Shown here in pieces: positions 32,482 to 53,479 of a stretch of DNA of 64,000 nt. A program made the translations under genes and the position numbers. The first letter of the stretch is position 1. Every line of letters begins with the position of its first letter. The DNA is from a virus: the IMG/VR virus record IMGVR_UViG_3300045141_000130, positions 9,358-73,357 of that record; one strand, 5' to 3'. The notes under the pieces were generated by a model that saw only the letters and a program-made list of their open reading frames with translations, had not been told where the DNA came from and did not search any database.

Positions 32482-34935
32482 CTATTCCTCCGCTGCGGGG
32501 TCGATGACCTCACCGGTGTCGGCGTTGATGAGGTGACCCTCGTCGTCGATGGTGACGTTGTCGTAGGTCCGCTGGCCCGCTTCTGAGGCGAGGTCAGGCC
32601 CTTCAAGATCATCAAACAGACCCCCGGGACCTCGCCTCTCGCCTCTCGACGAAGTCGAGGTTAGGCGAGGTGGGCGAGAAGACCCTCCGGCGACCTCGCC
32701 CGGCGAGGTCGAGGCGAGGTCAGGCGAGGTAGGCGAGGTGGTCCTGCCACTGAAGGGATCTATCCGGTATGCCCGGATCGAGGTGTGCTCGATGGAGCGC
32801 CCGACACGCTCCTGACCGATGTAGCCCTCGATGACCAGCCGGTCGATGGCATCGCGTTTGGTGTCGGTGGCAGCACCCCGGACCGCCCTTTCTATGGCCG
32901 CACCGGATACCGGTCCATCCATTCTTTCGAGGAACTCGGAAATGGCCTGCATCAATGGCTGCAGGGCCGGGTCGGTGCCGCGCACCGGTATGCGGGTGGC
33001 CGGTTCGATGCGGATGGTGACGTGGCCGGTGACGGGGTCGGAGTTGAGGTGTGCGGTGCCCAGGACGCTGGTGCCCGGCGGGCAGTGGCCACGGACCACA
33101 CCGGAGCGGTCCTTGTCGACGGTCAGTTGCACCTCGCCGTGCTGACCCTCCCCGAACACCCGTTCCACTTTGACCTTGATGGCACAGCCGGTGGTCATGG
33201 CCCTCTTGGCCTGGGCGCCGATGGCACCGGCCAGGTCGTTGTCCGCCTTGGGCAGGTGGTCGACGTAGGACACGGCCGCCCCGGTGCGGGCGATGGGCTT
33301 GAGGATCTTCTGGCTGAACATGGTGGCGTCCTTGTTGGACAGCAGGTCCCAGCCGTTGAGCGTCATACAGGCGTTCACACCGTCCATCACGACCAGCTGT
33401 GGCCGGAAGTCGCCGAGCATCTCGGCGAGCATCCGCTCGGCGACGGCGTCGAAGGCCCGGTCCGGGTTGATGTAGGCGATGCCCGACCAGATCTGCTCCC
33501 TGGTCAGGCCCAGGTGGACCAGGCGCCCGGTGATGCCACGCCAGCCGTCCTCGAAGTCGACGTAGGCGACGGGTATCCCGGCCTCGACGGCCTGCCTGAC
33601 GCCTTCGAGCATGATCCAGGTCTTGGCCGATTCGGAGGCTCCGATGATGCCGTTGACCCTGCCCGGATAGAACAGGGCCAGGCCGTTGGTGAGGCGGAGG
33701 AACTCGGGTGGCGGCTCGGAGATGTCGCCCTGCAGGAGGCTCTGAAGGTCGGCCCGGGCCCAGCTGTCAGGCTCCGCGACCTCGCCTGGGACTTCAGGCG
33801 AGGTCGGGCGAGGTTGGGTGGTGGTTGTGGCTGTATTCGCAGCTAGGAGCATTGCGATGACCTCGCCTGTCGGGTCAGGCGAGGTCGAGGCGAGGTCAGG
33901 CGAGGTCGAGTCGACCACCCGTTGGGTTCGTGGTGGCACCCGCAGCGTGGCGATGACAGGTGGGCAGGGGTCGCCCTCGGTCATGGTGATCTCGGGGTTG
34001 CCTGCGACGATGCGCACCGCACCGGTGACGATGCGGCCCCACTCGCTGCTGGCCTCGCGCAGGGTGCGGGAGTTGTCCCCGACGACGTTGCGGATGAAGC
34101 TGGCCCGCAGCCTGTCCAGGGCGACGCTGGTGCCGGTGTGCCCCTGCTCCCCGAAGCGGATGACGGCCAGCACCTGGTTACGGGTGGTGTCGTGGCGTGA
34201 GTCGCCGTGGGTGGTGATGGCCTGGACCGCCCTGGCCGTCCACTCGGCCATGAACGTGCACATGGCGGTGTTGTGGTTGGGCAGCTGCCCGATCCACGTC
34301 CAGGACTGGTCGTTGTCAAGGTCGGCCCTGGCCTGCGCGACGTGCTGGCCCAGGGACAGGCCGATGATCCATTCCACCGGCAGCGGCGGCATGTCGGCGG
34401 GGCCGGGGATGGTGGTGGAGGTCAGGCCCTCCCGGGTGATCCAGCGGTAGGGCCGCTGCTCCGGGTGCAGCGAGGGTGCCACCACCGCGTACCGGTGTCC
34501 GCGATGGACGAGTTCGACACCACCGCCGGGCAGCACACCCGGCCATTCGAGGCCTGGCGGCACCCGGAAGAACCGGATGCCAGAGATGCCATCGTCACGG
34601 CTGGTGGACCGCCAGGTGGGTGGCAGGACCCCCCACTTGGCCTCACACTCCTCCAACGTCAACCGGCCGCGCTTGTCGCCGTAGGAGTCCACGTCGATGC
34701 CGAGCACGTCGGGGGGCATGCGCAGTCCCACGTTGGAGTGGGGGCGGTCCTCGGTCCAGGCCATGACATCGGCGTAGCTGGGCTCGTCGCCCTCCCAGCC
34801 GGTCCAGCCTTCCGGTGGTGGGCTCTTGCGCCCGAACGGCAGGGGCAGGATGCCCCGCCACCCGGCGGTCCAGTACTGCTCGGCGGCTGACTCGTAGGGG
34901 CGTGCTGCCGGTTGGTCGGCGGTCGGTTTGGTCAT
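32482..34935 (-). CDS. Bifunctional primase/polymerase (Prim-Pol) fused to an AAA/RepA-type helicase
   Basis: NVGLRM..GIDVD, YAVVAPSLHP..YRW (Prim-Pol). GASESAKT Walker A variant, VAYVDFED, LVVMDG, GAQAKRA. C-terminal winged helix. Confidence 0.88.
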   Translation of the reverse strand: MTKPTADQPAARPYESAAEQYWTAGWRGILPLPFGRKSPPPEGWTGWEGDEPSYADVMAWTEDRPHSNVGLRMPPDVLGIDVDSYGDKRGRLTLEECEAKWGVLPPTWRSTSRDDGISGIRFFRVPPGLEWPGVLPGGGVELVHRGHRYAVVAPSLHPEQRPYRWITREGLTSTTIPGPADMPPLPVEWIIGLSLGQHVAQARADLDNDQSWTWIGQLPNHNTAMCTFMAEWTARAVQAITTHGDSRHDTTRNQVLAVIRFGEQGHTGTSVALDRLRASFIRNVVGDNSRTLREASSEWGRIVTGAVRIVAGNPEITMTEGDPCPPVIATLRVPPRTQRVVDSTSPDLASTSPDPTGEVIAMLLAANTATTTTQPRPTSPEVPGEVAEPDSWARADLQSLLQGDISEPPPEFLRLTNGLALFYPGRVNGIIGASESAKTWIMLEGVRQAVEAGIPVAYVDFEDGWRGITGRLVHLGLTREQIWSGIAYINPDRAFDAVAERMLAEMLGDFRPQLVVMDGVNACMTLNGWDLLSNKDATMFSQKILKPIARTGAAVSYVDHLPKADNDLAGAIGAQAKRAMTTGCAIKVKVERVFGEGQHGEVQLTVDKDRSGVVRGHCPPGTSVLGTAHLNSDPVTGHVTIRIEPATRIPVRGTDPALQPLMQAISEFLERMDGPVSGAAIERAVRGAATDTKRDAIDRLVIEGYIGQERVGRSIEHTSIRAYRIDPFSGRTTSPTSPDLASTSPGEVAGGSSRPPRLTSTSSRGERRGPGGLFDDLEGPDLASEAGQRTYDNVTIDDEGHLINADTGEVIDPAAEE
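32587..32739. repeat. GGCGAGGT iteron-like cluster 1 (8 copies, 2 inverted)
   Basis: Copies at 32587, 32664, 32702, 32713, 32723 and 32732. Inverted copies at 32629 and 32693. Confidence 0.8.
33779..33906. repeat. GGCGAGGT iteron-like cluster 2 (7 copies, 2 inverted)
   Basis: Copies at 33797, 33807, 33878, 33889 and 33899. Inverted copies at 33779 and 33860. The 29 bp at 33878-33906 are identical to 32702-32730. Confidence 0.8.
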
Positions 34936-41850: not shown

Positions 41851-41990
41851 GACTTGGCGTGGCACGGCACGGCTGGGCTTGGCCTGGCGTGGCGTGGCCG
41901 GGCAAGCCATGGCTTGGCAAGGCATGGTTTGGCTGGGTCCGGCCTGGCAAGGCACGGCGCGGCAAGGTAAGGGTCCCTCGCAAGGGGGAC
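41851..41990 (+). repeat. GGY-NN pentamer array 1 (24 units) plus GCAA-loop hairpin; putative guide RNA
   Basis: GACTT GGCGT GGCAC GGCAC GGCTG...GGTAA GG, then GTCCCTC-GCAA-GGGGGAC. Confidence 0.92.
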
Positions 41991-42115
41991 AAGTAGTACC
42001 CGCAATACAGCAGCCCCCCAGCATCCGTGCTGGGGGGCTGCTGGCGTTTTTCGGCGTATTACCCCCAGGCCAACCGGTCTGGGGTCCCTGCGTTTCTCCT
42101 GAGAGGAGAAAGCAG

Positions 42116-42484: not shown

Positions 42485-42500
42485 CAAACAGCAGCAACGC

Positions 42501-42561: not shown

Positions 42562-43017
42562 AGCAACACCAAGAAGCACCGAGGAAGGTTCGCCTTCCTC
42601 CTGGCGGGCATCATCACGGCCCTGCTGATCGCGTCGGCGTTCAGCGTCGGGTGGGTGTCCAACGCGGCGCCCGACCCGGTGCTGAGGCCGCAGCCCGCCG
42701 TCACCGTGCTGACCCACACGGTGCCCACCACCGTGCCCACCACCGTGGTCCACACCCAGGTGGAGACGCAGACCAAGACGGTGACGCGGGTCAGCGCCTA
42801 CTGCGCGGCGGCCATCGCGGATGCCGACGGCATCCAGGCCGAGTGGCTGCAGGTCGCCACCGACATGGGCAACGCCACCTCCGACATGGTCTACGGGGGG
42901 GCGAACGCCGCCAGCAACAGCGAGGTCGAGTCGGCCACCGCGCTGTTGAAGAAGTTGAACGACACCGACATCCCGCAGTACACCGCCGACAAGATCAAGT
43001 GCCAGGCGGGCGAGTAG
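42559..43017 (+). CDS. Membrane-anchored/secreted protein
   Basis: N-terminal basic stretch plus TM helix, Thr/Val-rich stalk, two Cys. Confidence 0.72.
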   Translation: MSNTKKHRGRFAFLLAGIITALLIASAFSVGWVSNAAPDPVLRPQPAVTVLTHTVPTTVPTTVVHTQVETQTKTVTRVSAYCAAAIADADGIQAEWLQVATDMGNATSDMVYGGANAASNSEVESATALLKKLNDTDIPQYTADKIKCQAGE

Positions 43018-43027
43018 CACTCGCAGT

Positions 43028-43088
43028 TTCAAGCCCCCCGGCCGACCGGCCGGGGGGTTCCTGCGTGTCTGGAAAGGACACTGCAATG
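43028..43088 (+). repeat. 61-bp hairpin+RBS leader repeat, copy 2
   Basis: TTCAAGCCCCCCGGCCG-AC-CGGCCGGGGGGTTCCTGCGTGTCTGGAAAGGACACTGCAATG. Confidence 0.85.
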
Positions 43089-43661
43089 CCCACAGAAGTT
43101 CAGCAGTTGAAGGCCGAGCTTGATGCCCTGCGTCTCCGGGTCATCCGGCTTGAAAGCACCACCCGGGGTATGCAGCGCGGCATCACGGCGCTGAAGGCGG
43201 TCGACAAGCCCGACCTGTCGGTGGTCGACTCCCCGGACGTCGAGCACATGGTCAGCCGTCTCGCCGGTGACCTGGCGAAGCGCCTGGGGCTGACCGACAT
43301 CACCCTCACCCCGGAGCAGCGGGAGGCGGAGGTCCAGTCGCGCCGCGACATCGAGCTTCGCGGGCTGCGGGTCGTCAACGAGCAGCTGCTCGCCGAGAAT
43401 GCGAAGCTCCGCGGCGACATCGAGTACCTGCGCAACGAGGCGTCCAGGCTCCGCGGGCTGAAGCTCACCGCCGAGGACGCCCTGGCCAACGATCAGCATG
43501 TGATCGAGGCGCTGCGCAAGGAACTCCGGCAGTTGACGGCCGAGACGATGCGCAGGGTCAACGCCGACAGGCTCGTCACCGAGGCCCCGGTCCTGACCGA
43601 CCCGTGGGAGGGTCTGACCGACCGGCAGCCCCGCAGCCACGGCAAGCCGGTCCGCGGCTGA
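43086..43661 (+). CDS. Coiled-coil hypothetical protein
   Basis: Start MPTEVQQLK after GGAAAGGA. Confidence 0.7.
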   Translation: MPTEVQQLKAELDALRLRVIRLESTTRGMQRGITALKAVDKPDLSVVDSPDVEHMVSRLAGDLAKRLGLTDITLTPEQREAEVQSRRDIELRGLRVVNEQLLAENAKLRGDIEYLRNEASRLRGLKLTAEDALANDQHVIEALRKELRQLTAETMRRVNADRLVTEAPVLTDPWEGLTDRQPRSHGKPVRG

Positions 43662-43867
43662 TGAACCCCTACGAGCAGGTCAGCTTCCGCCTGGCCGTCG
43701 GCGACGTCGTCCACCTGTTCCTGCCCCAGTCGAAGCTGACCGGGGTGGTGGACAGGATCGAGCTTCGCCTCGGCGGGCTCGACTGGACCCGGATCCACGT
43801 ACGGGTCGACGCGGACGGCGTCACCCGCGAATACCCCGTCGGGATGGTCTTCCCGGCGGGCTGCTAG
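43661..43867 (+). CDS. Small SH3-like hypothetical protein
   Basis: MNPYEQ..LAVGDVVHL. TGATG coupling. Confidence 0.6.
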   Translation: MNPYEQVSFRLAVGDVVHLFLPQSKLTGVVDRIELRLGGLDWTRIHVRVDADGVTREYPVGMVFPAGC

Positions 43868-43881
43868 TCCGCAAAAAGCGG

Positions 43882-43913
43882 TACAATGGAGGAGTCGCGT
43901 TGCGGCGTGCCCA
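43882..43913 (+). promoter_or_regulatory. Second early-promoter-like element
   Basis: TACAAT followed by GCGTTGCGGCGTGCCCA, the same 17-mer as at 41090-41106. Confidence 0.6.
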
Positions 43914-43999
43914 CTTTCGGGCCGCTGCGGCGCGATTTCTCGTTTCACCCCCCGGCGACCGTCGGGGGTTTCTTCGTTTCTCGGGAAAGGGAAACAGCA

Positions 44000-44116
44000 A
44001 TGAACGTCCCAGCGCACCACCTCAGGACCGGCCTGATCGTCGCCGTGGTCATGGCGATCATCACCGCGATCTGGGCGGCCGTGTTCGGCCTCGGCCTGAA
44101 GGAGAAGCAGTCGTGA
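44000..44116 (+). CDS. Small membrane protein
   Basis: 38 aa with a TM helix, after GGAAAGGG. Confidence 0.55.
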   Translation: MNVPAHHLRTGLIVAVVMAIITAIWAAVFGLGLKEKQS

Positions 44117-44313
44117 TCAGGATCTTGGTCGTCCTCTTCATCATCTGGGTCTTCGGCGATAAGGACCGCCCCGCCGAGCGCAACAACGACTGACGCATTC
44201 GGCGGGGCCCGGTTTCGACCGGGCCCCTGCCGTGGGTGCCAGTCACACCCAAACGGCCCCCCAGCACTCCCGCTGGGGGGCTTACTTCGTTCCCACGAAA
44301 GGGGAACAGCACC

Positions 44314-44643
44314 ATGAGCAACGCATTCACGCAGTACTGCCAGGCCCTCGGCAAGGGTCTGGGCCAGGGCACCACGGCGACCTGGCGCCAGACGAACACC
44401 CTGGCCGGGTTCGCCCAGGTCGTCCTCACCCCGATGGCCATGCGCCCCGCGGTGCTGGTGGGCAACCTGGCCACCAACGTGGTGATCCACTCCACCACGG
44501 CGTTCAAGGAGACGGCAGCGGTCCGCAAGGCCGCGGCGCCCGTCGCCGCCCTGCCCCAGGCGGCTGCCGCAGCCGCTGGCGCCCAGGCCCAGCCTGGGGC
44601 GATCTTCATCGTCCCGCCGGTCAAGACGGCCAGCGGGTCCTGA
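44314..44643 (+). CDS. Hypothetical protein
   Basis: Start MSNAFTQY after GAAAGGGG. Confidence 0.65.
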   Translation: MSNAFTQYCQALGKGLGQGTTATWRQTNTLAGFAQVVLTPMAMRPAVLVGNLATNVVIHSTTAFKETAAVRKAAAPVAALPQAAAAAAGAQAQPGAIFIVPPVKTASGS

Positions 44644-44709
44644 AGTACCGCCGGGGGGCCGCCTGGCCCCCCGGCACCCTTCGTTCCCACAGAAAGGGGA
44701 ACTTGCACC

Positions 44710-45039
44710 ATGTCCACTCCATCAACACCCACCACCGGCCCGGTCACGCTCATCCCGGCCGGGTCCATCGAGTGGGGCGTCATCCAGCAGAACGCCAAGG
44801 ACGTCGTGGCGTTGCGCGCCGAGGTCGCCCTCCTCAAGGAGGCCAAGGAGATCCGCGACCGCCGCATCTCCTGGCTGGAGTCCACCCTCGGCGAGAAGAT
44901 CGCCGAGGTGGTCGCCCTGCGTCGGGAGGCCGCAGTGGCCGGGCTGTCGCTCGACCGCTACCGCGGGCTGATCGACAGCCTCGCCGCACTCAGCAAGGCG
45001 CAGTCCCCGGAGACGGCCGCACCCGCGGCTGCCTCCTGA
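44710..45039 (+). CDS. Coiled-coil hypothetical protein
   Basis: GAAAGGGG RBS, 109 aa. Confidence 0.65.
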   Translation: MSTPSTPTTGPVTLIPAGSIEWGVIQQNAKDVVALRAEVALLKEAKEIRDRRISWLESTLGEKIAEVVALRREAAVAGLSLDRYRGLIDSLAALSKAQSPETAAPAAAS

Positions 45040-45107
45040 TCGACACCGTGGGGCGGGGAGCGCATCCCCGCCCCACGGCCCCAACCCACCAACTCCAAGG
45101 AGGAGTG

Positions 45108-45461
45108 ATGCGCAACCCGTTCCGCAGCAAGGCTGTCGCGTTCGACCCCGAACCGTGGCGGCCCGGTGAACTGTTCACCGAGTACCGCGCCGTCGTCAGT
45201 TCGTTCGACGACGACAAGCAGTTCCCGATCGTCTCGGTGTTGGCCGCCAACGCCGAGCAGGCCCAGCAGGCGATCACCCACGCGGTGAACGCCAAGGCGC
45301 TGGAGATGGGTGTGAGCATGGACTACCTGCAGGTCCAGATGCTGGCCTCCCCGGAGGTCGTCCGGGTCTGGAACCAGGACATCAACACCCGGTCGTGGGG
45401 CGTGTTCGCCACGCCCGCCAACCACGCCGCCATCGAGGCCCCGAAGAGGAAGGCCTCCTGA
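45108..45461 (+). CDS. Hypothetical protein
   Basis: Start MRNPFRSK after AAGGAGGAG. Confidence 0.7.
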   Translation: MRNPFRSKAVAFDPEPWRPGELFTEYRAVVSSFDDDKQFPIVSVLAANAEQAQQAITHAVNAKALEMGVSMDYLQVQMLASPEVVRVWNQDINTRSWGVFATPANHAAIEAPKRKAS

Positions 45462-45916
45462 TGACGACCCCCCGGCGGAAGCTCCCCAAGATCAACCCCG
45501 CCATGGCGATCGCCGGGGGGATCGGCATGGGGGGACTTGCCCCGGTCCGCCCCCGCCGGTCCCTGGGGCGGGTCAAGGACGCGGCGTTCCAGCCCGTGGA
45601 GCGCAAGTACGTGGACGTGTCCGACAACCCGCAGTGGCTGGCCCTGGAACCCCAGCTAGACAGGGCACGCAAGGCCGTGGAGCGCTGGGAGGACAAGGAG
45701 GTCGACGCCAACACCGCCATGCGAGAGATCGCGGGCGACCAGGATGTCGAAGGCCTCCGGTTCCGCCTGTTCCACAGCCACCCGCAAGGTCCCGTCAACC
45801 TGGAACTGCTGGCCGCCCACTTCGGCGTCAGCATCGGGTTCCTCGACAGGTTCCGGGACCCGCGGCGGCACAGCGTCACCATCCAGCGCATCGTCGGGCG
45901 GAGGCGGAAGCGATGA
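45461..45916 (+). CDS. Hypothetical protein
   Basis: TGATG coupling, GAGGAAGG RBS. Confidence 0.6.
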   Translation: MTTPRRKLPKINPAMAIAGGIGMGGLAPVRPRRSLGRVKDAAFQPVERKYVDVSDNPQWLALEPQLDRARKAVERWEDKEVDANTAMREIAGDQDVEGLRFRLFHSHPQGPVNLELLAAHFGVSIGFLDRFRDPRRHSVTIQRIVGRRRKR

Positions 45917-46134
45917 CCGAGCACGTCTACACGGTCACCATCACCCACCTCACCCTGGAGGCGAAGGAGGCCGACGCGATGATGACGACGGCCATCGAGG
46001 CGCTGGGCGGCATGCTGTACGAGTACTCCGGGGGCCTGGCGGCGTACGAGGTGACCGGCTTTCGCCACGGCGACGGCGAGGTCATCGGGTACGTCCACGA
46101 CCCGGACGAGTTGGAAGATGAGGAGGGGACATGA
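45913..46134 (+). CDS. Hypothetical protein
   Basis: Start MTEHVY, ATGA overlap. Confidence 0.6.
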   Translation: MTEHVYTVTITHLTLEAKEADAMMTTAIEALGGMLYEYSGGLAAYEVTGFRHGDGEVIGYVHDPDELEDEEGT

Positions 46135-46469
46135 ACGCCGCCCCCGCTGCCGATACCGGCGGCCTGTGCTGGGAGCAGCTGCCCAGCGACCAGGCCGCCG
46201 CGCTCGTCCTCGTCGACCTGTACCGGGCGCACCTGTCCACCAGCGAGTCCAGCCGCCGCTACCGCATCGTGGTGGCGGCGTACAACCAGTGGCTGGGCGC
46301 CGTCAAGGTGATGGGCTTCGTCTGGCACCGCAGTCCCGACGACATCCGCGATGCGGTCATCGACACCGTGATGGCCGTCGGCCGGGCCTACCACAGCGAC
46401 GACAAGGCGCAGTGGCAGGACCGGGCGATGTACGGCGTGCTGGGAAAGCTGCACCTGCACGACGACTGA
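46131..46469 (+). CDS. Hypothetical protein
   Basis: GAGGAGGGG RBS, 112 aa. Confidence 0.65.
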   Translation: MNAAPAADTGGLCWEQLPSDQAAALVLVDLYRAHLSTSESSRRYRIVVAAYNQWLGAVKVMGFVWHRSPDDIRDAVIDTVMAVGRAYHSDDKAQWQDRAMYGVLGKLHLHDD

Positions 46470-46479
46470 CGCAGTCTCT

Positions 46480-46502
46480 GGCCCACCCTTCGGGGTGGGC
46501 CA
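46480..46502 (+). terminator. Hairpin, terminator candidate
   Basis: GGCCCACCC-TTCG-GGGTGGGCC with a T-run shortly downstream. Confidence 0.5.
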
Positions 46503-46619
46503 GGGGTCTGCGATTTTTTGCGTTTCCGGGGAAAAGATGATCTTGAACCCTCCGATTGGTGTCGGAGGGTCGATTCATGCTGTCCGGAACCACCGGCAGC
46601 ACCCGAAAGGAGGGCCGCT

Positions 46620-47975
46620 GTGACAACAGCGAGTCCCGAGCGCATCGGAAATGCGCACACCGCAGTAGCGCGAGGTGCCGAGTTCGGCGACATCCTCGCG
46701 TTGCTCAACAAGCAGCAGGCCAGGAAGGTCGACATCGTCATTCCTGGCAGCAAACTGCTCGTCCGGGACGGCATGCTCGTCGTCGCCGACGACGTCGTCG
46801 ACATGAGCGACGAAGGGGTGACCCGGGTCGGCGGCGAGTATTGGCCCACCACCTGGTTCGACGCCCACGTCGCCGAACGGTTGGACATTCCTGTTGCCTA
46901 TCTGCGCCGCCTGCGCAACGGCAGGGAGATCGTCGGCACCAGGGGTCGCAGCCGCACCCTCGGCCCGCGACTGGACCTGTACGACAGCAACGTCAACGGG
47001 TTGTTCCGCGGCAACGACGACGTCCCGCCGGACCTGCGGAACTTCTACGCCCGGCTGCTCGTCCCCGACGACCAGGACACCAACGGCATCGCCTACGCGC
47101 TGATGTCCTCCAAGTACTGGAGGCTGGACAACTACGACGCGATCATGGCCACCCTGTCCGGCATCCGCAAGGCCGGGATCGACCCGCTGTCGTTGCACAT
47201 CTACGGCGACCTGTCGGAGACGAAGCTGTACCTGCACGTCCACGCGCCGCAGGTGCTCACCGCCGCACCCGAACTGCTGCGCAACTACCGCAGCCCGTTC
47301 GACATCCAGGGCGAGGCAAGCAAACGCCAGGTTCCGGCCTACACGCTGGAGCAGAGGGTGGCCATGGGCCGCCAGTGGCGGGAGACCCACCGGCTGGACG
47401 AACACATCCAGCCCGGCTCCGAACCGCTCGTCCACTCCGGTTTCCTGATCACCAACTCGGAGATCGGGCAGGGCCGCTGGTCCATCCAGAAGGAGATCGT
47501 CTTCCTGGCGTGCACCAACGGGATGACCTTGACGGCGGGCCGTTTCGAGCGGCGGCACGTCGGCAGCGACCAGGAGGAGGGCCAGGTCGAATGGTCGGCG
47601 GAAACCCGTGACGCCGAGTTGCAGTGGATCGTCTCCTCGACCGCCGACATCGTGGCCGATGCGCTCAACCCGGAATCCCTGGAGAACACCGTCACCGCCC
47701 TGGAGCAGAAGGCGGGGCGCACCGTGGACGACCCGCGACGCACCATCGCGGTCGTCGCCCAGAAGCACCTGTTCAACAAGGACGAGGAGGAGGCGATCCT
47801 CCGCCACTTCGAGTTGGGTCAGGCCTTCACCAGTGCCGGTGTGGCGCAGGCCATCTCGTCCGTCGCCCAGATGTACGAGGACCCGGACCGGGCGCACAAG
47901 CTGACCGACGCCGCCATCCCCGCGATGGAACTCGTCCACTCCCTGAGAAGTACCGGGAGTCGGGCATCCCTCTGA
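46620..47975 (+). CDS. DUF932-family protein
   Basis: GTG after AAGGAGGG. AERLDIPVAYLRRL, ALMSSKYWRLDN, GFLITNSEIGQG, FLACTNGM, ERRHVG. Confidence 0.78.
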   Translation: MTTASPERIGNAHTAVARGAEFGDILALLNKQQARKVDIVIPGSKLLVRDGMLVVADDVVDMSDEGVTRVGGEYWPTTWFDAHVAERLDIPVAYLRRLRNGREIVGTRGRSRTLGPRLDLYDSNVNGLFRGNDDVPPDLRNFYARLLVPDDQDTNGIAYALMSSKYWRLDNYDAIMATLSGIRKAGIDPLSLHIYGDLSETKLYLHVHAPQVLTAAPELLRNYRSPFDIQGEASKRQVPAYTLEQRVAMGRQWRETHRLDEHIQPGSEPLVHSGFLITNSEIGQGRWSIQKEIVFLACTNGMTLTAGRFERRHVGSDQEEGQVEWSAETRDAELQWIVSSTADIVADALNPESLENTVTALEQKAGRTVDDPRRTIAVVAQKHLFNKDEEEAILRHFELGQAFTSAGVAQAISSVAQMYEDPDRAHKLTDAAIPAMELVHSLRSTGSRASL

Positions 47976-48356
47976 GACCTGGCAAGGCCGGGAGAGGCCG
48001 GGCGAGGCATGGCTAGCTTTGGCACGCAAGGGCGAGGCTTGGCTTGGCTAGGCGTGGCAAGGCGTGGCTAGGCGGGGAATGGCAAGGCGAGGTATGGAAT
48101 GCCGAGGCGGTGCATGGCCGGGCTAGGCCAGGTTCGGCGCGGTATGGCTCGGCAAGGCATGGCGAGGCTCGGTTGGGTCGGCCATGGCGAGGCAAGGCTA
48201 GGCGAGGCGCGGTGTGGCAAGGCGGGGTTCGGCAAGGTCAGGTTCGGCGTGCTCCGGTTTGGTATGGCCAGGTCGGGCTAGGCACGGTCGGGTCCGGTTC
48301 GGCGGGCCTGGGCATGGTATGGGCTCCCCGTAAGTCCCTCATTTGGGCCGGGGAGC
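47976..48356 (+). repeat. GGY-NN pentamer array 2 (69 units) plus UAAGU-bulged hairpin; putative guide RNA
   Basis: GACCT GGCAA GGCCG...GGCAT GGTAT GG in unbroken 5-nt register 47976-48320. Hairpin 48323-48356. Confidence 0.93.
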
Positions 48357-48391
48357 AAACAACAAATCCCTTGAGAGGAAAGGATTTTCGC

Positions 48392-48802
48392 ATGACAGGA
48401 GGACCATCAGACGGGGCGTACGAAGTCCTGAACACGATGCTTCACGACATGCTTCACAGCCCGGGGGCGCAGGCCACGTTCAACATGGACACGCCGATGG
48501 CGACACTCATCGACACGTTCGATCTGGCCTTGCCGCCGGACTCCGACGAGAACTTCACCTGCGATCTGTGCGACCAGGTACACCGGGAGGGCCTGGACCG
48601 CATCGTCACCGCATTCGAGCCTGGCGAGCCACCCACCGACGGCAGCCCCGGGTACGTCAAGATGATCGCCGCCGCGGGCAAGAGCCCCACAGATCTGGCC
48701 ATGGAGAAACTCGACCGACCGAGGGTGATCCTGGTCCTGTACTCGTGCCGCAACTGCTCGCTGGAGATCCAGCAGGGGATGGACCGCCAGGAAACCTTCT
48801 GA
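48392..48802 (+). CDS. Zn-binding hypothetical protein
   Basis: Start MTGGPSD after GAGGAAAGGA. CDLC...CRNC. Confidence 0.65.
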   Translation: MTGGPSDGAYEVLNTMLHDMLHSPGAQATFNMDTPMATLIDTFDLALPPDSDENFTCDLCDQVHREGLDRIVTAFEPGEPPTDGSPGYVKMIAAAGKSPTDLAMEKLDRPRVILVLYSCRNCSLEIQQGMDRQETF

Positions 48803-49226
48803 GACGTGCTGTGGCATGGCGTGACTCGGTGGGGCGAGGCGGGGCATGCTTTGGCGCGGCGAGGCGGGGCTAGGCGTGGCCAGGCACGGCGCGGTTCGGC
48901 TCGGCGGGGCGAGGCGAGACATGGCAGGCCAAGGCAGGGCACGGTGCGGTTCGGCTGGCCATGGCTTGGTGTTGGCACGGCTGGGCTCGGCAGGGAATGG
49001 CTAGGCCTGGTTTGGTGCGGCCGGGAGTGGCTCGGCTAGGCAAGGTCGGGTTAGGCGTGGCTCGGCGTGGCAAGCCTTGGCGCGGCGCGGTGTGATCAGG
49101 TTGGGTGTGCCGCGGTTTGGCTTGGTCGGGTTAGGCGCGGCGTGGCATGACTTGGCTCGGTGTGGCTCGGCATGGAAGGCCAGGGCACGGTTTGGGTTCT
49201 CCGTAAGTCCCTTCGGGCCGGAGAAC
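48803..49226 (+). repeat. GGY-NN pentamer array 3 (78 units, one 6-nt unit) plus UAAGU-bulged hairpin; putative guide RNA
   Basis: GACGT GCTGT GGCAT...GGCAC GGTTT GG. Hairpin GTTCTCCG...CGGAGAAC at 49196-49226. Confidence 0.93.
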
Positions 49227-49280
49227 AAAGGGGGATTGGGGGGGGCGTATACAACCTCGAAACTCTTTGGGAGAACAAGA

Positions 49281-50339
49281 ATGACGAGTACGGAAACACA
49301 GATACGTGCAGTGTCTGACGCACCGTTCGCAATGACGCCGCATTTGTTGCGGATGCTGCGCGAGCGGCCTGTCGGGGTCCAGCGGATCCTGCGCAGGACC
49401 GACACCGGGGAGTTGAGGGCGTTCCTCGACCCCACCGCCGCAGACCAGGGCTTCTGGACCGCCCTCCCCGTCTGGCGTTCGGCGGAATGGCGCTACGACG
49501 ACAGCCGCTGGCTGGCCAGCACCGGCAGCCTGTCGTCGCCGGAGAACCTGGTGGACAACCTCGGCTGGTTCGACGTCCCGATCGTCTGGGCCATCACCGA
49601 GACCCCGTACTTCGCGGAGTTGCTCGCGGCCCGGTCGGACGACACGGTGCTGGTGATGGGTGACCCGCGGGACGGCGAACTGCGGTGCTACAAGGAGCGG
49701 AACTGGGACGAGTACCCCGCCCAGAGCGGCTGGCAGGCGTGGCCGACCGTCCGCGATCCCCTCAACCGGTCCTACGGCCCGGATCTCAACTGGCTGACCC
49801 ACAACTTCGGCGCCGTCTCCCTGCAGCAGGTCAAGGACGCCGGTTTCATCAAGGTGTGGGAGAAGGCCGAGGAGAACCCCATCCTCGTCGAGGTCAACCC
49901 GGAGGTGAACCGGCTGCAACTGCGCATCACCGACCTGGAGTCCACCCTGGCCACTCTGCGCACCCAGAACCAGACGCAGCAGCGGCGCCTGGAGCAGATG
50001 TCCAACGACCACGAGCGGTTCAAGGAGTTGGTGTCCTCCACCGCCACCAAGTACGCCCGGCGGCACGACTGGTGCTCCGTCGTCGACGAGGCGCTGGAGG
50101 AGATGGGACTGGAGAGGGAGCCGGTCAGCTTCAGCGGGGTCATCAGCGTCCGCATCAACTTCACCGCCAACCGCACCGACGGTGAACGTGGCACCCCGAA
50201 CGCCCGTGACGTCAACCGCTGGCTGTACGGCGAGGATGACGTGCGTGAAGCCATCGGCGAGAACCTCAGCCTCGACGAGGATTACGCCGGTGACTTCGAG
50301 ATCGACAGCTACAGCTTCGAGGTCATCTCCACCTCGTAG
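49281..50339 (+). CDS. Hypothetical protein (Trp-rich N-terminus, coiled coil)
   Basis: Start MTSTETQIR after GGGAGA. 352 aa. Confidence 0.72.
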   Translation: MTSTETQIRAVSDAPFAMTPHLLRMLRERPVGVQRILRRTDTGELRAFLDPTAADQGFWTALPVWRSAEWRYDDSRWLASTGSLSSPENLVDNLGWFDVPIVWAITETPYFAELLAARSDDTVLVMGDPRDGELRCYKERNWDEYPAQSGWQAWPTVRDPLNRSYGPDLNWLTHNFGAVSLQQVKDAGFIKVWEKAEENPILVEVNPEVNRLQLRITDLESTLATLRTQNQTQQRRLEQMSNDHERFKELVSSTATKYARRHDWCSVVDEALEEMGLEREPVSFSGVISVRINFTANRTDGERGTPNARDVNRWLYGEDDVREAIGENLSLDEDYAGDFEIDSYSFEVISTS

Positions 50340-50420
50340 TGCGCTACGCAGTAGCAGCCCCCCTGCCACCCGGCAGGGGGGCTTCCTTGTCCGCAAAAAC
50401 ACCTGAAAGGTGGTTCTGCT

Positions 50421-51041
50421 GTGCCAGACGTCGACGACGAAGACCCGTCACGACACACGTACGAGAGCCGGGAGATGGCCGAACGGGAACTGGCGGGCTG
50501 GTTCCCGCCGTCGGTCCCCGAGGAGGCCAAACCGGAACTCATGCGCATCGCCATCGTCGAACACCCCGGGCAGGAACCCCTGCGCACCCTGTGGAGCATC
50601 CACCCGGAGTTCGTCTACCTGACGAACCCCGAACTGTGGATGCTCGTCACCTGGATCACCGGTGACGAGCGTTCCCGCGGCAGCCTCCGCGGGATACCGC
50701 TGCTACTGGTCCAGCTGGCAGCGCTGCGCGATCACCATGTCGCGCTCATCGGGCAACTCAACGAACTGACATCCAACCAGGAGGCAAACACCATGACCGA
50801 ACCCATCAACGTCGACCCCAGCACCGTGATCCATCAGGGAACGATCAGCATCGCCATCGACTTCCGGGCAACCTTGGCGCCCACCGAGTTCCTGGAGGGC
50901 GACGACATCGAGGAGGCGCTGAACAAGTTCGCCGACCTGGAGGCGATCAAGAACGCCATCAAGGCCGCTCCCCGGCTCGACGGCATCTCCATCGAGAGCA
51001 TCTCGTTCGGTGCTCAGGTGGCCAGCTTTTTGACCAGCTGA
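50421..51041 (+). CDS. Hypothetical protein, with a strong internal in-frame start at 50793
   Basis: GAAAGGTGG before GTG 50421. AGGAGG before ATG 50793. Confidence 0.55.
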   Translation: MPDVDDEDPSRHTYESREMAERELAGWFPPSVPEEAKPELMRIAIVEHPGQEPLRTLWSIHPEFVYLTNPELWMLVTWITGDERSRGSLRGIPLLLVQLAALRDHHVALIGQLNELTSNQEANTMTEPINVDPSTVIHQGTISIAIDFRATLAPTEFLEGDDIEEALNKFADLEAIKNAIKAAPRLDGISIESISFGAQVASFLTS

Positions 51042-51047
51042 CCTTCT

Positions 51048-51218
51048 GACGTGGCCAGGGCTTGGCAAGCCGTGGCGGGGTCGGGTCGGCCGTGGCGTGG
51101 CTAGACAGGGCCGGGTTTGGTGTGGCTCGGAATGGTGCGGCGAGCCAGGGTTCGGCTCGGCATGGCATGGCCGGGTTCGGTGAGGTATGGGGCCCCCCAG
51201 CCTTCGGGCTGGGGGGCC
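51048..51218 (+). repeat. GGY-NN pentamer array 4 (~28 units) plus cUUCGg hairpin; putative guide RNA
   Basis: GACGTG GCCAG GGCTT GGCAA...GGTGA GGTAT GG, then GGCCCCCCAGCC-TTCG-GGCTGGGGGGCC. Confidence 0.93.
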
Positions 51219-51240
51219 ATCCTCGTCGCAGGGGGGTTGC

Positions 51241-51429
51241 GGCGAGGCTGGCTGAGGCGCGGCGCGGCGGGGCAGGGTCCGGCTTGGCCAGGCATGGCTG
51301 GGCGAGGTTGGGTGTGGGGTGGTTAGCCGAGGTCCGGCGCGGCTGGCTGGGGTTCGGCGGGGTGGGGCTTGGTCTGGCGTGCCCAGGCACGGTGAGGTAT
51401 GGGGCCCGCCACGGGGGGTGTGGCGAGCC
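51241..51429 (+). repeat. GGY-NN pentamer array 5 (32 units) plus hairpin; putative guide RNA
   Basis: GGCGA GGCTG...GGTGA GGTAT GG, then GGCCCGCCAC...GTGGCGAGCC. Confidence 0.92.
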
Positions 51430-51431
51430 AT

Positions 51432-51789
51432 GGATAGGACTGGCAAGGCTGGACCTGGCGGGGCAAGGTCGGACAGGGCAAGGCGTGGCCTGGTGCGGCT
51501 GGGTTAGGCACGGCCTGGTGCGGCTAGCTTCGGCGGGGCGTTGGCTCGGCATGGCCTGCCGTGGAAAGGTTGGCCGAGGCAAGGCGTGGCAAGGCGCGGC
51601 GAGGTGAGGCCTGGCAGGGCAGGGCGCGGCGAGGCGGGGCAGGCCACGGCGGGGCGAGGTGTGGTCAGGTTCAGGTGGGGTCTGGGTCTGGCGTGGCAGC
51701 GGCTGGGCCAGGCCCGGTTTGGCCAGGCGCGGCGTGGTATGGGCCGCCCGTAAGTCCTTAGCCGCCGGATGCGGCTAAGGCCGGGCGGC
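51432..51789 (+). repeat. GGY-NN pentamer array 6 (~61 units, four 6-nt units) plus UAAGU-bulged hairpin; putative guide RNA
   Basis: GGATA GGACT GGCAA...GGCGT GGTAT GG. Hairpin 51743-51789. Confidence 0.9.
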
Positions 51790-51814
51790 GAAACAAGTCT
51801 TCCTTCCAATCTCA

Positions 51815-51937
51815 GGCTAGGCATGCCGAGCACAGGCATGGCCTGGATAGGTGCGGCGCGCTGCGGTTGGCCGTGGCTCGGCAGGGAAAGGCTTGGCAAG
51901 GCGAGGTATGGGTCCCCAAGGAGAAGCCTTGCGGGAC
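51815..51937 (+). repeat. GGY-NN pentamer array 7 (19 units) plus hairpin; putative guide RNA
   Basis: GGCTA GGCAT...GGCGA GGTAT GG, then GTCCCCAAGG-AGAAG-CCTTGCGGGAC. Directly upstream of the RAMP gene. Confidence 0.9.
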
Positions 51938-51956
51938 AAGAACAAAGGAGCACGCC

Positions 51957-52640
51957 GTGGTTACACGGAGCCGCAGTACCGCAGTGAAGCCGGACCCGGA
52001 GCCGAACGCTCTGGACGGTGATGTGAGCGACTCGGGCAACGCCACGTACGAGGCCAACCGGCCCTTCCGGGCGGCCGTCGAGATCACCGGCGACTCGGTG
52101 ATCCTGTTCCACCGTTGGCAGTCCGACGCGGTCGACGCGAAGGCCGCTGCCGCCAAGGGGTCCCGAGCGAAGAAGACCGATGATGTTGATTCTTACGTTT
52201 GGGAGAACGAGAACGGGGTGCTGTGCCTGCCCGGCGAGTACCTGCGTTGCTCGCTCACCAACCCGCAGAACGGTGCCGCGAAGTACCTTCAGGACCCGCG
52301 GTCCCCCCGCAAGTCGGCCTTGGATTTGTTCAAGGCTGGTGTTGTCAGCCTCACCGACCTGGCCCCGATCACCAAGGCGGACGGCACACCGGCCGAGGGC
52401 TGGGACCACCTGGACCGCCGCCGCGTGGTGGTGCAGAGGTCGGGCGTCACCCGCTCCCGGCCCGCATTCGCCACCGGCTGGAAGGCGGAGATCATTTTGA
52501 TGTCTCTGCTGCCTCAATACATCAGCCCGTCATTGCTGCGGACGACGCTGTCCGACGCTGGGAAACTCGTTGGGGTGGGCGACTTCCGGCCCACCTTCGG
52601 CCGGTTCAGCGTCACGAAGTTTGAGGTCCTCCAGGACTAG
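51957..52640 (+). CDS. Stand-alone RAMP/Cas7-like RNA-binding protein (putative effector of the GGY-NN arrays)
   Basis: GTG after AAAGGAG, 227 aa. N-terminal strand AAVEITGDSVILFH. GVLCLPGEYLRCSL resembles the Cas7-group IPGSSxKG motif. Basic thumb-like DRRRVVVQRSGVTRSRP. C-terminal Gly-rich loop AGKLVGVGDFRPTFGRFSV. Confidence 0.78.
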   Translation: MVTRSRSTAVKPDPEPNALDGDVSDSGNATYEANRPFRAAVEITGDSVILFHRWQSDAVDAKAAAAKGSRAKKTDDVDSYVWENENGVLCLPGEYLRCSLTNPQNGAAKYLQDPRSPRKSALDLFKAGVVSLTDLAPITKADGTPAEGWDHLDRRRVVVQRSGVTRSRPAFATGWKAEIILMSLLPQYISPSLLRTTLSDAGKLVGVGDFRPTFGRFSVTKFEVLQD

Positions 52641-52901
52641 GCGAGGCTGGGCTGGGCATGGCGCGGCTGGGCGCGGCAAGGCCTGGCTAGGAATGGCAAG
52701 CCGGGGCGCGGCTAGGCGAGGCTGGGCGGGGTCAGGTGGGGCTAGGTTCGGCGTGGCATGGCGAGACATGGCTCGGCTGGGCAAGGCGTGCCTTGGCAAG
52801 GCGCGGCGCGGCTGGGAAAGGCAAGGTCGGGTGGGGCCTGGCGAGGTCCGGCCGGGTATGCCGAGGCTCGGTGAGGTATGGGTTTCACCCTCGGGTGAGA
52901 C
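52635..52901 (+). repeat. GGY-NN pentamer array 8 (49 units) plus hairpin; putative guide RNA
   Basis: GACTA GGCGA (overlapping the TAG stop)...GGTGA GGTAT GG, then GTTTCACC-CTCG-GGTGAGAC. Confidence 0.93.
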
Positions 52902-52918
52902 GAGAAGTATTGGCCTGC

Positions 52919-52947
52919 TTGCGTTCTCGGTTTTGACCCCATACAAT
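52919..52947 (+). promoter_or_regulatory. SigA-like promoter
   Basis: TTGCGT-N17-TACAAT. Confidence 0.65.
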
Positions 52948-53075
52948 GGGGACATGCCTTCCGAACAACTGGGCGCCGCTGAGGCGAACACCAGCGGGAG
53001 GCGAAGCACTGGATGTCCGTTGCGGGGTGCAAGTCCCCGGTTCCTGCAAAGAGCCACGGAGTCCGGTTCGACCTA

Positions 53076-53111
53076 GAGGCCCCGCCTGATTCGTCAGGCG
53101 GGGCCTCTTTC
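53076..53111 (+). terminator. Intrinsic terminator-like hairpin
   Basis: GAGGCCCCGCCTGA-TTCG-TCAGGCGGGGCCTC followed by TTT. Confidence 0.65.
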
Positions 53112-53170
53112 GTTGTGTGCCCGGCAGCATTCCCGCTGCCGGGCTTTCGCATTTCTCCAAGGAGGAGAGC

Positions 53171-53479
53171 ATGACAACAGCGGTTGTGAAGAAGGCAAAA
53201 GCGGGGACCGTGCTCGTCACGGCCGAGATGTACGCCGTGATCCGCGAGACGAAGAAGGGCCACGTCAAGGTGGACCTGATGCTCCGCCTGCCGAAGCCGA
53301 GCCAGCAGGGACTGGTACGGCTGTGCCGCCGCACCTTCTACGCCTACGGGCACACCGGCTACCGGTCCCAGGACGCACAGCGCTGGGCTGAGGCGGAGGC
53401 CTGGGCCAACGCCCGGCTGTACGCGCTGAGCACCGGCCCACGCCGCCAGTTCCTGTATCTCACCGGGGCGCAGAACTGA
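53171..53479 (+). CDS. Hypothetical basic protein
   Basis: Start MTTAVVKK after AAGGAGGAG. Confidence 0.65.
   Translation: MTTAVVKKAKAGTVLVTAEMYAVIRETKKGHVKVDLMLRLPKPSQQGLVRLCRRTFYAYGHTGYRSQDAQRWAEAEAWANARLYALSTGPRRQFLYLTGAQN

What the first reader, a model, noticed from the sequence alone, without database searches (positions are those of the whole stretch)
48261..48315. Guide block against a Prim-Pol gene (IHPEGRVYRWI) that differs from the phage's own primase at two codons
Seen: NN at 48261-48310 = at ca cg ta ac cg cc tc gg tg. The + strand at 34438-34467 (own primase, HPEQRPYRWI) read as xNN gives AT CA CG TA GG CG TG TC GG TG, so 8 of 10 dinucleotides are identical. The reverse-complement decode is (I)HPEGRVYRWI, a canonical Prim-Pol motif variant. 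Inference: it targets the replication gene of a related competing phage or element, and the two mismatched codons spare self. Caveat: an 8/10 match somewhere in 64 kb is not by itself far above chance. The support comes from landing on a conserved motif in codon phase.
Basis: partly seen in the sequence, partly recalled or inferred. Interest (0 to 1): 0.82.

Follow-up and report, generated by a model that had tools for sequence, protein, structure and literature searches.

The report
Phage guide RNA aimed at rival primases
A soil phage carries a recently described RNA-guided silencing system (VIPR), and one of its guides exactly matches the primase gene of other phages while missing its own at three codons, so it looks like a weapon against competitors.

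Summary
The system itself is already published.

**The locus is a VIPR system** (bioRxiv 10.64898/2026.04.26.720920):
- A Cas7-like Vipr gene lies at 51957-52640. It is 30% identical to the characterised SUSP1 Vipr (E 2e-11).
- Eight co-oriented GGYNN arrays each end in GGUAU-G plus a hairpin.

**The own-genome match is weak evidence.** The 8/10 match to the phage's own primase is near chance: 18 of 256 real blocks and 17 of 768 shuffled blocks score as well. Codon phase adds little, because about 48% of chance hits are also in phase.

- Exact 10-unit pattern: 1 of 1 IMG/VR hits and 7 of 9 JGI metagenome hits lie on the homologous Prim-Pol motif, with the skipped base at wobble.
- Four high-GC contigs read IHPEGRVYRWI. 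They match all 11 units of 48261-48315 (22/22 nt).
- The 5 remaining hits, including all 3 in GTDB genomes, are background.
- The match stops at the conserved last unit before the tail. This fits the published 11-12-subunit filament.

**Not shown:** expression of the guide, its processing from a 68-unit array, binding, and whether 16/20 really spares self.

**Verdict:** a new member of a known kind, of moderate interest.

The parts
48261..48315 (+). Guide block of a vrRNA. [quoted passage not shown]
   Evidence: Units were parsed. There are 22/22 nt matches to L030, L034, L035 and L036, and 20/20 to L002, L028, L029 and L033. The block is identical in contigs of soil runs X2, X3 and X4.
48316..48356 (+). 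Conserved last unit GGTAT, a G, and the 3' hairpin tail of array 2.
   Evidence: The last unit never matches the targets (0/2 in the four 11-unit targets). All 8 arrays end in a GGTAT-like unit (GGTAT in six, GGTAA and GGTTT in one each), then G, then a hairpin starting 2 nt later. SUSP1 vrRNAs end in the same GGTATGGG junction.
47981..48320 (+). Array 2: 68 in-phase pentamers upstream of one tail. The guide block is its tail-proximal part.
   Evidence: A strain variant in run X4 swaps units 48176-48215 only. This suggests that several guide modules share one array.
51957..52640 (+). vipr gene (227 aa), encoding a Cas7-like RAMP protein. It is flanked by arrays on both sides.
   Evidence: No Pfam match; phrog_4652 of unknown function. 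The AF2 model has pLDDT 82. The top Foldseek PDB hits shown are Csm3, Cas7-11, type VII and Cmr effector chains; 49 hits have E<=1e-3, best 5e-5. BLASTP to SUSP1 gp039 gives 30% identity over 193 aa, E 2e-11. 4854 homologues were found.
41856..41995 (+). Array 1 (23 units) with its hairpin tail.
48808..49226 (+). Array 3 (about 77 units, with one 1-nt phase slip) and its tail.
51063..51937 (+). Arrays 4-7, with four tails at about 51189, 51401, 51741 and 51910.
52635..52901 (+). Array 8 (49 units) with its tail, directly downstream of vipr.
34438..34470 (-). Near-target site in the phage's own Prim-Pol gene (LHPEQRPYRWI). It matches 8 of 11 units, 17/22 nt.
   Evidence: The gene 32482-34935 is Prim-Pol plus AAA_25.

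Best explanation
The block is the targeting part of a VIPR guide RNA (vrRNA).

**Proposed mechanism, by analogy with SUSP1:**
- The + strand arrays are transcribed.
- One Vipr (Cas7-like) protomer binds each GGYNN unit. It hides the GGY and presents the NN.
- The 11 NN pairs of 48261-48315 pair with double-stranded DNA two bases out of every three, skipping the codon wobble base.
- The last unit (GGUAU) and the hairpin act as the constant 3' handle.

**Target and effect:**
- The cognate target is the conserved '...PS[ILV]HPEGRVYRWI' stretch of bifunctional primase-polymerase genes of other actinophage-like elements.
- Binding there would block transcription of the rival's replication gene, as shown for SUSP1 VIPR.
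- The phage's own primase differs at three of the eleven codons (L for I, Q for G, P for V). This is inferred to keep it from being silenced.

**Shown here:** the VIPR anatomy, homology to a characterised Vipr, and exact natural targets.

**Inferred:** transcription, processing, binding, repression and self-sparing.
For: **The locus is VIPR.**
- The Vipr fold resembles Cas7/Csm3.
- It is 30% identical to SUSP1 gp039, E 2e-11. That gene is flanked by one upstream and three downstream GGYNN arrays, as the paper describes.
- The GGTATGGG array-tail junction is shared with SUSP1.
- 8 of 8 arrays end in a hairpin at the same offset.
- 75 of 80 IMG/VR loci with a Vipr homologue carry co-oriented GG-period-5 arrays.

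**The 1-nt skip rule holds in this clade.**
- Cross-matches of 2320 guide blocks against the 80 loci gave 16 hits at 9/10 units under skip 1.
- Skips 0, 2 and 3 gave 0, 4 and 0 hits, and shuffled guides gave 0.
- Most of the 16 lie in open frames with x at wobble, including vipr genes of other phages.

**This guide has exact natural targets.**
- IMG/VR: 1 of 1 exact hit is on the Prim-Pol motif.
- JGI metagenomes: 7 of 9 exact hits are on it.
- GTDB genomes: 0 of 3. This gives the background rate.
- Four contigs match 11/11 units. The match ends exactly at the conserved last unit.
- 11 targeting units plus one handle unit equals the 11-12 protomers of complete SUSP1 filaments (passages of 10.64898/2026.04.26.720927).
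- With the two self-mismatch units left open, 13 of 19 IMG/VR hits are on the Prim-Pol motif, and all 13 carry Gly as the guide reads.

**The guide is maintained.** It is unchanged in contigs of runs X2, X3 and X4 (two studies), while a neighbouring 8-unit module is swapped in X4.

**Family context.** In 120 homologue clusters, Gly is at motif position 4 in 107. One cluster (P0124, 64% identical, from a 75-kb contig) reads IHPEGRVYRWI exactly.
Against: - No RNA data exist for this phage, so transcription and processing are unseen.
- The guide sits in a 68-unit array with a single tail, unlike the 9-16-repeat vrRNAs that have been characterised. How an 11-unit guide would be released or used is unknown.
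- Only this one block matches the target contigs. No other block reached more than 17/20 in the roughly 207 kb of fetched loci scanned, which include the target-bearing ones, or more than 16/20 in the 24-kb contig G001. The several-guides-on-one-element convergence reported for SUSP1 is therefore not seen.
- The self site scores 16/20 = 80%, the very threshold the VIPR paper uses for calling targets. Self-sparing is unproven.
- Perfect targets are found only in uncultured contigs. Four cultured phages examined match 8, 6, 6 and 3 of 11 units.
- 401 genomes of the order of the Nocardia genome G002 had no hit at <=2 mismatches, apart from the background seed hit.
- Three further guide blocks of this phage gave no convincing IMG/VR target.
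- No conserved accessory (vap) gene was found: 0 of 80 loci for each of 11 neighbouring proteins.
Confidence: 0.77

Rival explanations
1. Autoregulation. The guide acts on the phage's own primase gene through the 8/10-unit match, for example to time or limit replication. The perfect matches elsewhere would then merely reflect the guide's descent from an ancestral primase sequence.
For: The own primase site is the unique best match of this block in the genome. 16/20 equals the 80% NN threshold used in the VIPR paper to call targets. Real blocks have about 2.4 times more >=16/20 self hits than order-shuffled blocks: 20 against 8.5 per replicate.
Against: Matches of this quality occur for 18 of 256 blocks and in 2-4% of control blocks. 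The guide agrees with foreign genes at all 11 units and with the family-wide Gly (107 of 120 clusters) where the own gene has Gln. The paper reports that perturbing NN pairing abolished silencing, and that no self hits >=80% occurred in its sets.
Confidence: 0.08
2. Coincidence or relic. The block is an ordinary stretch of a repeat array with no current target. A chance 8/10 self match is completed to 10-11/11 by one of many primase variants in very large databases.
For: - The self match is chance-level.
- The databases are huge, and five background exact hits were found.
- The motif is highly conserved. So once 8 units match, only two or three variable codons need to fit.
- The Val variant is in the minority: 1 of 13 IMG/VR motif hits, and Val at that position in 10 of 120 clusters.
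Against: - The gene, the site and the exact peptide were predicted before any search.
- Only 3 residue pairs occupy the two open codons among the 13 IMG/VR motif hits, out of 256 possible dinucleotide pairs. The 11th unit also fits in four contigs.
- The match ends exactly at the conserved handle unit.
- A control 8-unit block from the same array gave 12 IMG/VR hits, none in a homologous gene.
- The block is conserved across runs while its neighbour varies.
Confidence: 0.12
3. Not a guide RNA at all. The period-5 GGC arrays would be DNA-level elements, such as protein-binding or structural repeats, or odd coding repeats.
For: No transcript data are available. Some ORFs can be drawn across the arrays.
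Against: The arrays co-occur and are co-oriented with a Cas7-like gene in 75 of 80 loci. That gene is homologous to the experimentally characterised SUSP1 Vipr, and the array-tail junction is shared. The variant strain changes mainly NN positions (12 of 17 listed substitutions) and keeps or restores every GG.
Confidence: 0.03

Closest known systems
VIPR system of Escherichia phage SUSP1 (type II VIPR; bioRxiv 10.64898/2026.04.26.720920, 10.64898/2026.04.26.720927, 10.64898/2026.10.15.759431)
   Same: - The Vipr protein is homologous: 30% identity over 193 aa, E 2e-11, with a shared C-terminal GVGD[FW]RPxFGRFSV motif.
- Both have GGYNN tandem units on the vipr strand, up- and downstream of vipr.
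- Both arrays end in GGTATGGG followed by a structured tail.
- Targets are read by the 1-nt skip with the skipped base at codon wobble.
- A guide of 11 units plus a handle unit fits the 11-12-protomer filament.
- The target is an essential gene of another mobile element, at a conserved protein motif. This is the same logic as in the abstract and discussion of the October 2026 preprint.
   Different: - Arrays here hold 19 to about 77 units per tail, against 9-16 repeats per roughly 100-nt vrRNA.
- Eight arrays are spread over 11 kb among unrelated genes.
- The tails are simple hairpins, three of which share a GTAAGTCC loop element, rather than the SUSP1 pseudoknot sequence.
- No vap homologue was found.
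- The phage is a high-GC soil phage with an actinophage-type primase.
- The target is a Prim-Pol gene. The word 'primase' occurs in neither the first nor the third preprint, and no held paper contains both 'vrRNA' and 'primase'. Supplementary target tables could not be seen.
Class 1 CRISPR Cas7 backbone (Csm3/Cmr4, Cas7-11, type VII Cas7)
   Same: The predicted fold matches: Foldseek probability 1.0, TM about 0.45, best E 5e-5, and 49 chains with E<=1e-3. One protomer binds per repeat-length step of guide RNA, with periodic unpaired bases.
   Different: There is no CRISPR repeat-spacer array, no cas genes and no second RRM domain. The guide is read 2 of every 5 RNA bases against 2 of every 3 DNA bases.
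'Staggered' VIPR arrays without intervening tails (fig. S18 legend of 10.64898/2026.04.26.720920)
   Same: Long uninterrupted pentamer arrays in which several guides appear to share one array. Supporting observations: internal blocks of relatives' arrays hit targets, and a module is swapped in a strain variant.
   Different: Only the figure legend could be read. Whether this phage's clade is the one shown, and where its processing sites lie, is unknown.

Membership tests
VIPR (Viral Interference Programmable Repeat) system | Vipr protein: a minimal RAMP/Cas7-like protein homologous to published Vipr proteins | tested here: met
   The top Foldseek hits shown are CRISPR Cas7-family effector chains. 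BLASTP to the SUSP1 gene flanked by the published vrRNA arrays gives 30% identity, E 2e-11.
VIPR (Viral Interference Programmable Repeat) system | Tandem YNNGG/GGYNN units with conserved GGY and hypervariable NN next to vipr, on the same strand | tested here: met
   Eight arrays lie on the + strand only. 75 of 80 relatives carry co-oriented arrays. A strain variant changes mainly NN positions: 12 of 17 listed substitutions.
VIPR (Viral Interference Programmable Repeat) system | Constant structured 3' tail after the repeat tract | tested here: met
   8 of 8 arrays end in GGTAT-like unit + G + a hairpin starting at the same offset. Individual z-scores range from -0.1 to -4.6. The junction is shared with SUSP1. 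The tail sequence itself is not conserved with SUSP1.
VIPR (Viral Interference Programmable Repeat) system | Natural targets obey the 1-nt skip rule, with the skipped base at codon wobble | tested here: met
   This guide matches 22/22 nt in four contigs and 20/20 in four more, all with x at wobble of a Prim-Pol ORF. Clade-wide, there are 16 hits at 9/10 units under skip 1, against 0, 4 and 0 under other skips.
VIPR (Viral Interference Programmable Repeat) system | vrRNA is expressed, about 100 nt long, and bound by Vipr | not testable with these tools
   No RNA run holds this phage. This is listed only as something tried.
VIPR (Viral Interference Programmable Repeat) system | Accessory vap gene next to vipr (typical, not universal) | tested here: not met
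   None of 11 neighbouring proteins has a homologue in any of the 80 relatives' loci, while vipr is found in 80 of 80. The paper says loci 'typically' hold a vap, so this does not exclude membership.
Bifunctional Prim-Pol (PF09250) as the targeted gene | The target ORF is a Prim-Pol, and the site is homologous to the own-gene site | tested here: met
   The own gene and the L036 gene both score PF09250 + PF13481. BLASTP alignment puts SLHPEQRPYRWI opposite SLHPEGRVYRWI. The motif columns are aligned in 120 homologues.

The most novel reading that the evidence does not exclude
The phage carries a broad-spectrum 'anti-primase' guide that reads the near-consensus catalytic-region motif of a whole Prim-Pol clade. 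The family consensus [LI]HPEGRTYRWI is one residue from the guide's decode. The phage makes itself immune by recoding its own primase at the guide-read codons. This includes Gln in place of a Gly that 107 of 120 homologue clusters keep. That would be self/non-self discrimination achieved by target-site divergence in an essential enzyme, not by any feature of the guide system. In addition, its 19- to 77-unit arrays would be multi-guide cassettes whose modules are exchanged between strains, as seen at 48176-48215.
Probability: 0.3. Interest if true: 0.7.

Novelty: new member of a known kind. Interest (0 to 1): 0.52.

Why it matters
VIPR was described only in 2026, and mostly in enterobacterial and Pseudomonas phages. 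This case adds several things.
- A sequence-only prediction of a natural target (gene, site and exact peptide) was confirmed in independent metagenome collections. This shows the 1-nt-skip code can be read directly from raw phage sequence in a distant, high-GC clade.
- It points to DNA replication (a primase-polymerase) as a target in phage-phage conflict. 'Primase' appears in neither VIPR preprint text-searched for it (the first and third; the structural one was not searched for that word), and no held paper pairs 'vrRNA' with 'primase'.
- It offers a natural test pair for mismatch tolerance and self-avoidance: a perfect site against an own site with three codon differences.
- The very long arrays and the strain-level module swap may help show how VIPR guides are organised and renewed.

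Tried and rejected
**Targets sought and not found**
- Other array blocks do not hit the target contigs. Nothing scored above 16/20 in the 24-kb contig G001. In the 27 scanned loci the only other hit at 17/20 or more was a single 17/20.
- Relatives' guides do not target this phage. Hits >=17/20 numbered 8 under skip 1, against 9, 4 and 12 under the other skips and 5 for shuffled guides.
- No similar anti-primase guide occurs in the 80 relatives' arrays. The best was 12/20.
- A second candidate guide (48171-48220) resembles the own gene 46518-47975 at WRLDNYDA. It had 0 exact 10-unit hits, and 12 hits with 8 units, none in a homologous gene.
- The 9 tail-proximal units of array 7 gave 0 IMG/VR hits.
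- GTDB genomes gave 3 exact hits, none in a Prim-Pol.
- 401 genomes of the order of the Nocardia genome G002 gave only the background seed hit at <=2 mismatches.
- The self-version of the pattern gave 0 IMG/VR hits. This was already implied.

**Context searches**
- There is no close cultured relative. Megablast of window 1-25000 found nothing. Cultured-phage Prim-Pols are all under 60% identical to the own primase, and the best match to the L036 target region is 60.4%.
- Rfam gave no family at E<=0.1 in 41000-54000, so there is no hammerhead ribozyme between the arrays.
- No RNA holder was listed for this phage.
- The idea that the own Gln is unique was tempered. Five homologues with a one-residue-longer motif read HP[DE]TQR[PA]YRWI.

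**Tools and limits**
- The earlier-findings tool was not open.
- Supplementary tables of the VIPR papers, which hold the target lists, were not seen.

Full report
**What is there**

The window is 64 kb of a 73,357-bp virus record. It has 64-74% GC and no close cultured relative. Between 41.8 and 52.9 kb the + strand carries seven stretches of period-5 GG repeats. The minus strand has none.

Parsed into pentamers, these stretches are GGYNN units forming eight arrays. Each array ends in a GGTAT-like last unit (GGTAT in six, GGTAA and GGTTT in one each), followed by G and GG plus a hairpin. When folded, all eight hairpins start at the same offset after that last unit. Individual z-scores run from -0.1 to -4.6. 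Rfam has no family here.

**The system**

A full-text search found the 2026 preprint that describes VIPR (outline and sections read). Its main points:
- Phages encode a minimal RAMP protein (Vipr) and vrRNAs made of 9-16 YNNGG repeats plus a constant 3' tail.
- The NN bases read double-stranded DNA while skipping every third base, usually the codon wobble base.
- Natural targets are competing mobile elements.

The ORF at 51957-52640 lies between arrays. Evidence that it is a Vipr:
- It has no Pfam match and one PHROG of unknown function.
- It has 4854 homologues.
- Its AlphaFold model has pLDDT 82. The top Foldseek PDB matches shown are CRISPR Cas7-family effector chains, best E 5e-5, with 49 chains at E<=1e-3.
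- tblastn against GenBank phages finds phage SUSP1 itself.
- BLASTP to SUSP1 gp039 gives 30% identity over 193 residues, E 2e-11, with the C-terminal glycine-rich motif shared.
- That SUSP1 gene is flanked by one upstream and three downstream GGYNN arrays, and their 3' ends carry the same GGTATGGG junction.

In IMG/VR, 341 stretches encode a relative of this Vipr. Of the best 80 loci, 75 carry co-oriented arrays. None of 11 neighbouring proteins recurs in those loci, so no accessory gene is evident.

**The observation**

The NN list, the xNN reading of 34438-34467, the 8/10 agreement and the decoded peptide are all correct. The own gene is a Prim-Pol plus AAA_25 protein.

By itself the self match is unremarkable:
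- 18 of 256 real blocks reach 16/20 or better somewhere in the genome under the 1-nt skip.
- Under skips 0, 2 and 3 the counts are 7, 6 and 11 of 256. Order-shuffled blocks give 17 of 768.
- About half of chance hits also fall in wobble phase: 41 of 85 shuffled, against 11 of 20 real.

| Collection | Exact 10-unit hits | On the Prim-Pol motif |
|---|---|---|
| IMG/VR | 1 | 1 |
| GTDB species genomes | 3 | 0 |
| JGI metagenome contigs | 9 | 7 |

Details of the hits:
- The IMG/VR hit lies in an open Prim-Pol frame reading ...WPSLHPEGRVYRWIGPG..., with x at wobble. That protein is 33-44% identical to the own primase.
- The GTDB result gives the background rate.
- Of the 7 metagenome hits, three read VHPEGRVYRWI. 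Four read IHPEGRVYRWI, all in contigs of 65-67% GC.
- The unit before the block (GGTTT) matches at 1 of 2 bases. The last unit, GGTAT, matches at 0 of 2.
- The 5 remaining hits, including all 3 in GTDB genomes, are background.

Eleven reading units plus one constant unit agree with the 11-12-protomer complete filaments seen by cryo-EM for SUSP1 (passages read).

One target contig (L036, 14.6 kb) carries a Prim-Pol+AAA_25 gene (Pfam). It also has WhiB-like regulator, DNA methyltransferase and exonuclease PHROG matches. It therefore looks like an actinophage replication module.

**How far above chance**

- With the two self-mismatching units left open, IMG/VR gives 19 hits. Thirteen are on the Prim-Pol motif: 11 with G,T; 1 with G,V; 1 with G,E. 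The other six are background, from three distinct sequences.
- So even granting a lucky 8/10 self match, only 3 of 256 possible dinucleotide pairs at the two open units would complete a match in IMG/VR. The 11th unit fits as well.
- A control 8-unit block from the same array gave 12 hits, none in a homologous gene.
- I put the chance or relic reading at about 0.12.

**Independent support for the rule in this clade**

I scanned 2320 guide blocks (from relatives and from this phage) against the 80 relatives' loci. There were 16 hits at 9/10 units under skip 1. Skips 0, 2 and 3 gave 0, 4 and 0, and shuffled guides gave 0.

The clearest of these hits are in coding frames with x at wobble:
- One guide hits the vipr genes of three other phages.
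- Four related arrays hit one conserved gene. There the matched units again sit directly before a single non-matching unit and the hairpin.
- Other matched blocks lie at the 5' end or inside long arrays. Long arrays therefore seem to hold several guides.

**Population data**

The phage is present in soil metagenome runs, and no RNA run is listed.
- Contigs of three runs from two studies cover 48261-48315 with no listed difference.
- One variant (run X4) has units 48176-48215 replaced. It shows 17 listed substitutions plus two 1-nt indels. Twelve substitutions are at NN positions, four are at the Y position, and one restores a GG.
- This is the 'conserved GGY, hypervariable NN' signature, at the scale of a guide module.

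**Self against non-self**

Among the 120 closest primase clusters, H, Y and W of the motif are invariant:
- Position 4 is Gly in 107.
- Position 6 is Thr in 66, Pro in 15 and Val in 10.

The guide's decode matches 11/11 residues in one cluster (P0124, 64% identical, from a 75-kb contig), 10/11 in 17 clusters and 9/11 in 37. The own protein scores 8/11.

The own Gln is shared only with five homologues that have a one-residue-longer motif. It may therefore be a lineage trait rather than a dedicated escape change.

Whether three mismatched units prevent binding is not known. No mismatch-tolerance data were found in the passages searched. In addition, 16/20 equals the paper's 80% calling threshold.

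**Against the reading**

- There are no transcript data.
- One tail serves 68 units.
- Only this one block hits the target contigs.
- Perfect targets occur only in uncultured contigs. Four cultured phages match as follows: Corndog 8/11, TinyDot 6, GTE8 6, ChewyVIII 3.
- 401 genomes of the order of the Nocardia genome G002 gave nothing at <=2 mismatches beyond the seed.
- Three other guide blocks gave no convincing target.

**Novelty**

The kind of system, its code and the logic of aiming at conserved protein motifs in codon phase are all in print. Three things appear new:
- the clade: a high-GC soil phage with arrays of 19 to about 77 units;
- the target class: 'primase' occurs in neither of the two preprints text-searched for it (the first and third), and no held paper has both 'vrRNA' and 'primase' (the supplementary target tables were not seen);
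- the natural perfect-site / own-site pair.

I rate it a new member of a known kind.

Noticed in passing
window 48176-48215: In contigs of soil run X4, eight pentamer units are replaced by different NN while the GG scaffold is kept or restored. There are 17 listed substitutions, 12 of them at NN positions, plus two 1-nt indels. The flanks, including the primase guide, show no listed difference apart from single changes at 48343 and 48527. This looks like exchange of one guide module between strains.
   Followed up: partly
window 48171-48220 versus 47118-47147: A second block of array 2 resembles the gene just upstream (46518-47975, phrog_1362) in wobble phase. The guide decodes roughly as W-R-I-D-N-Y-D-A-V, against the own W-R-L-D-N-Y-D-A-I, with 16/20 in three consecutive windows. 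No homologous target was found in IMG/VR. This block overlaps the module that is swapped in run X4.
   Followed up: partly
window 41921-41965 (array 1, the 9 units before the last unit): This block decodes (reverse complement, x at wobble) as F-A-V-F-[S/R]-G-[H/Q]-[K/N]-[I/M]. One of two exact IMG/VR hits lies on ...DFAVFSGHKMYGP... of a class-V aminotransferase ORF (Pfam PF00266, E 2e-57) in a 37% GC locus. The other lies in a 41-codon open frame. With 18 specified bases, about one chance hit is expected, so this may be coincidence.
   Followed up: partly
L001 (Mycobacterium phage Philus 36610-36854) and 26 other Mycobacterium phage records: blastn of the locus against GenBank phages matches only the arrays, at about 70% identity, in Cheoctovirus-type mycobacteriophages. 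In some records a 'hypothetical protein' is annotated over the array. tblastn with this Vipr finds no Mycobacterium phage. Those phages may carry a divergent Vipr or orphan arrays.
   Followed up: no
L069 3129-3190; L079 7525, L084 3447, L087 11122, L081 8997: Two sets of guides in relatives have targets:
- A guide at the 5' end of a long array matches the vipr genes of three other phages (L037, L097, L115) at 9/10 units, over the ...RPAF.AGW... motif.
- Four related arrays match a conserved gene reading ...GIYSAGLKRKDLGYAVTVAGIQSIW... in five loci.

   Followed up: partly
GenBank OR003939.1 (Phage DSL-LC04) 22435-23016: This record holds the closest Vipr homologue in a named phage: 54% identity over 90% of the query. 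The gene is annotated there as a helix-turn-helix transcriptional regulator.
   Followed up: no
window 48392-48802, 49281-50339, 50421-51041: Three genes sit between the arrays. They have no Pfam or PHROG match and no homologue in any of the 80 Vipr-bearing loci. The 136-aa product has two CxxC pairs. It is unknown whether any of them is an accessory factor.
   Followed up: partly
window 23137-26141: A dense run of period-9, -18 and -27 tandem repeats occurs in the structural-gene half of the window, in the highest-GC stretch (72-74%). It may encode Gly-X-Y (collagen-like) repeats of a fibre protein.
   Followed up: no
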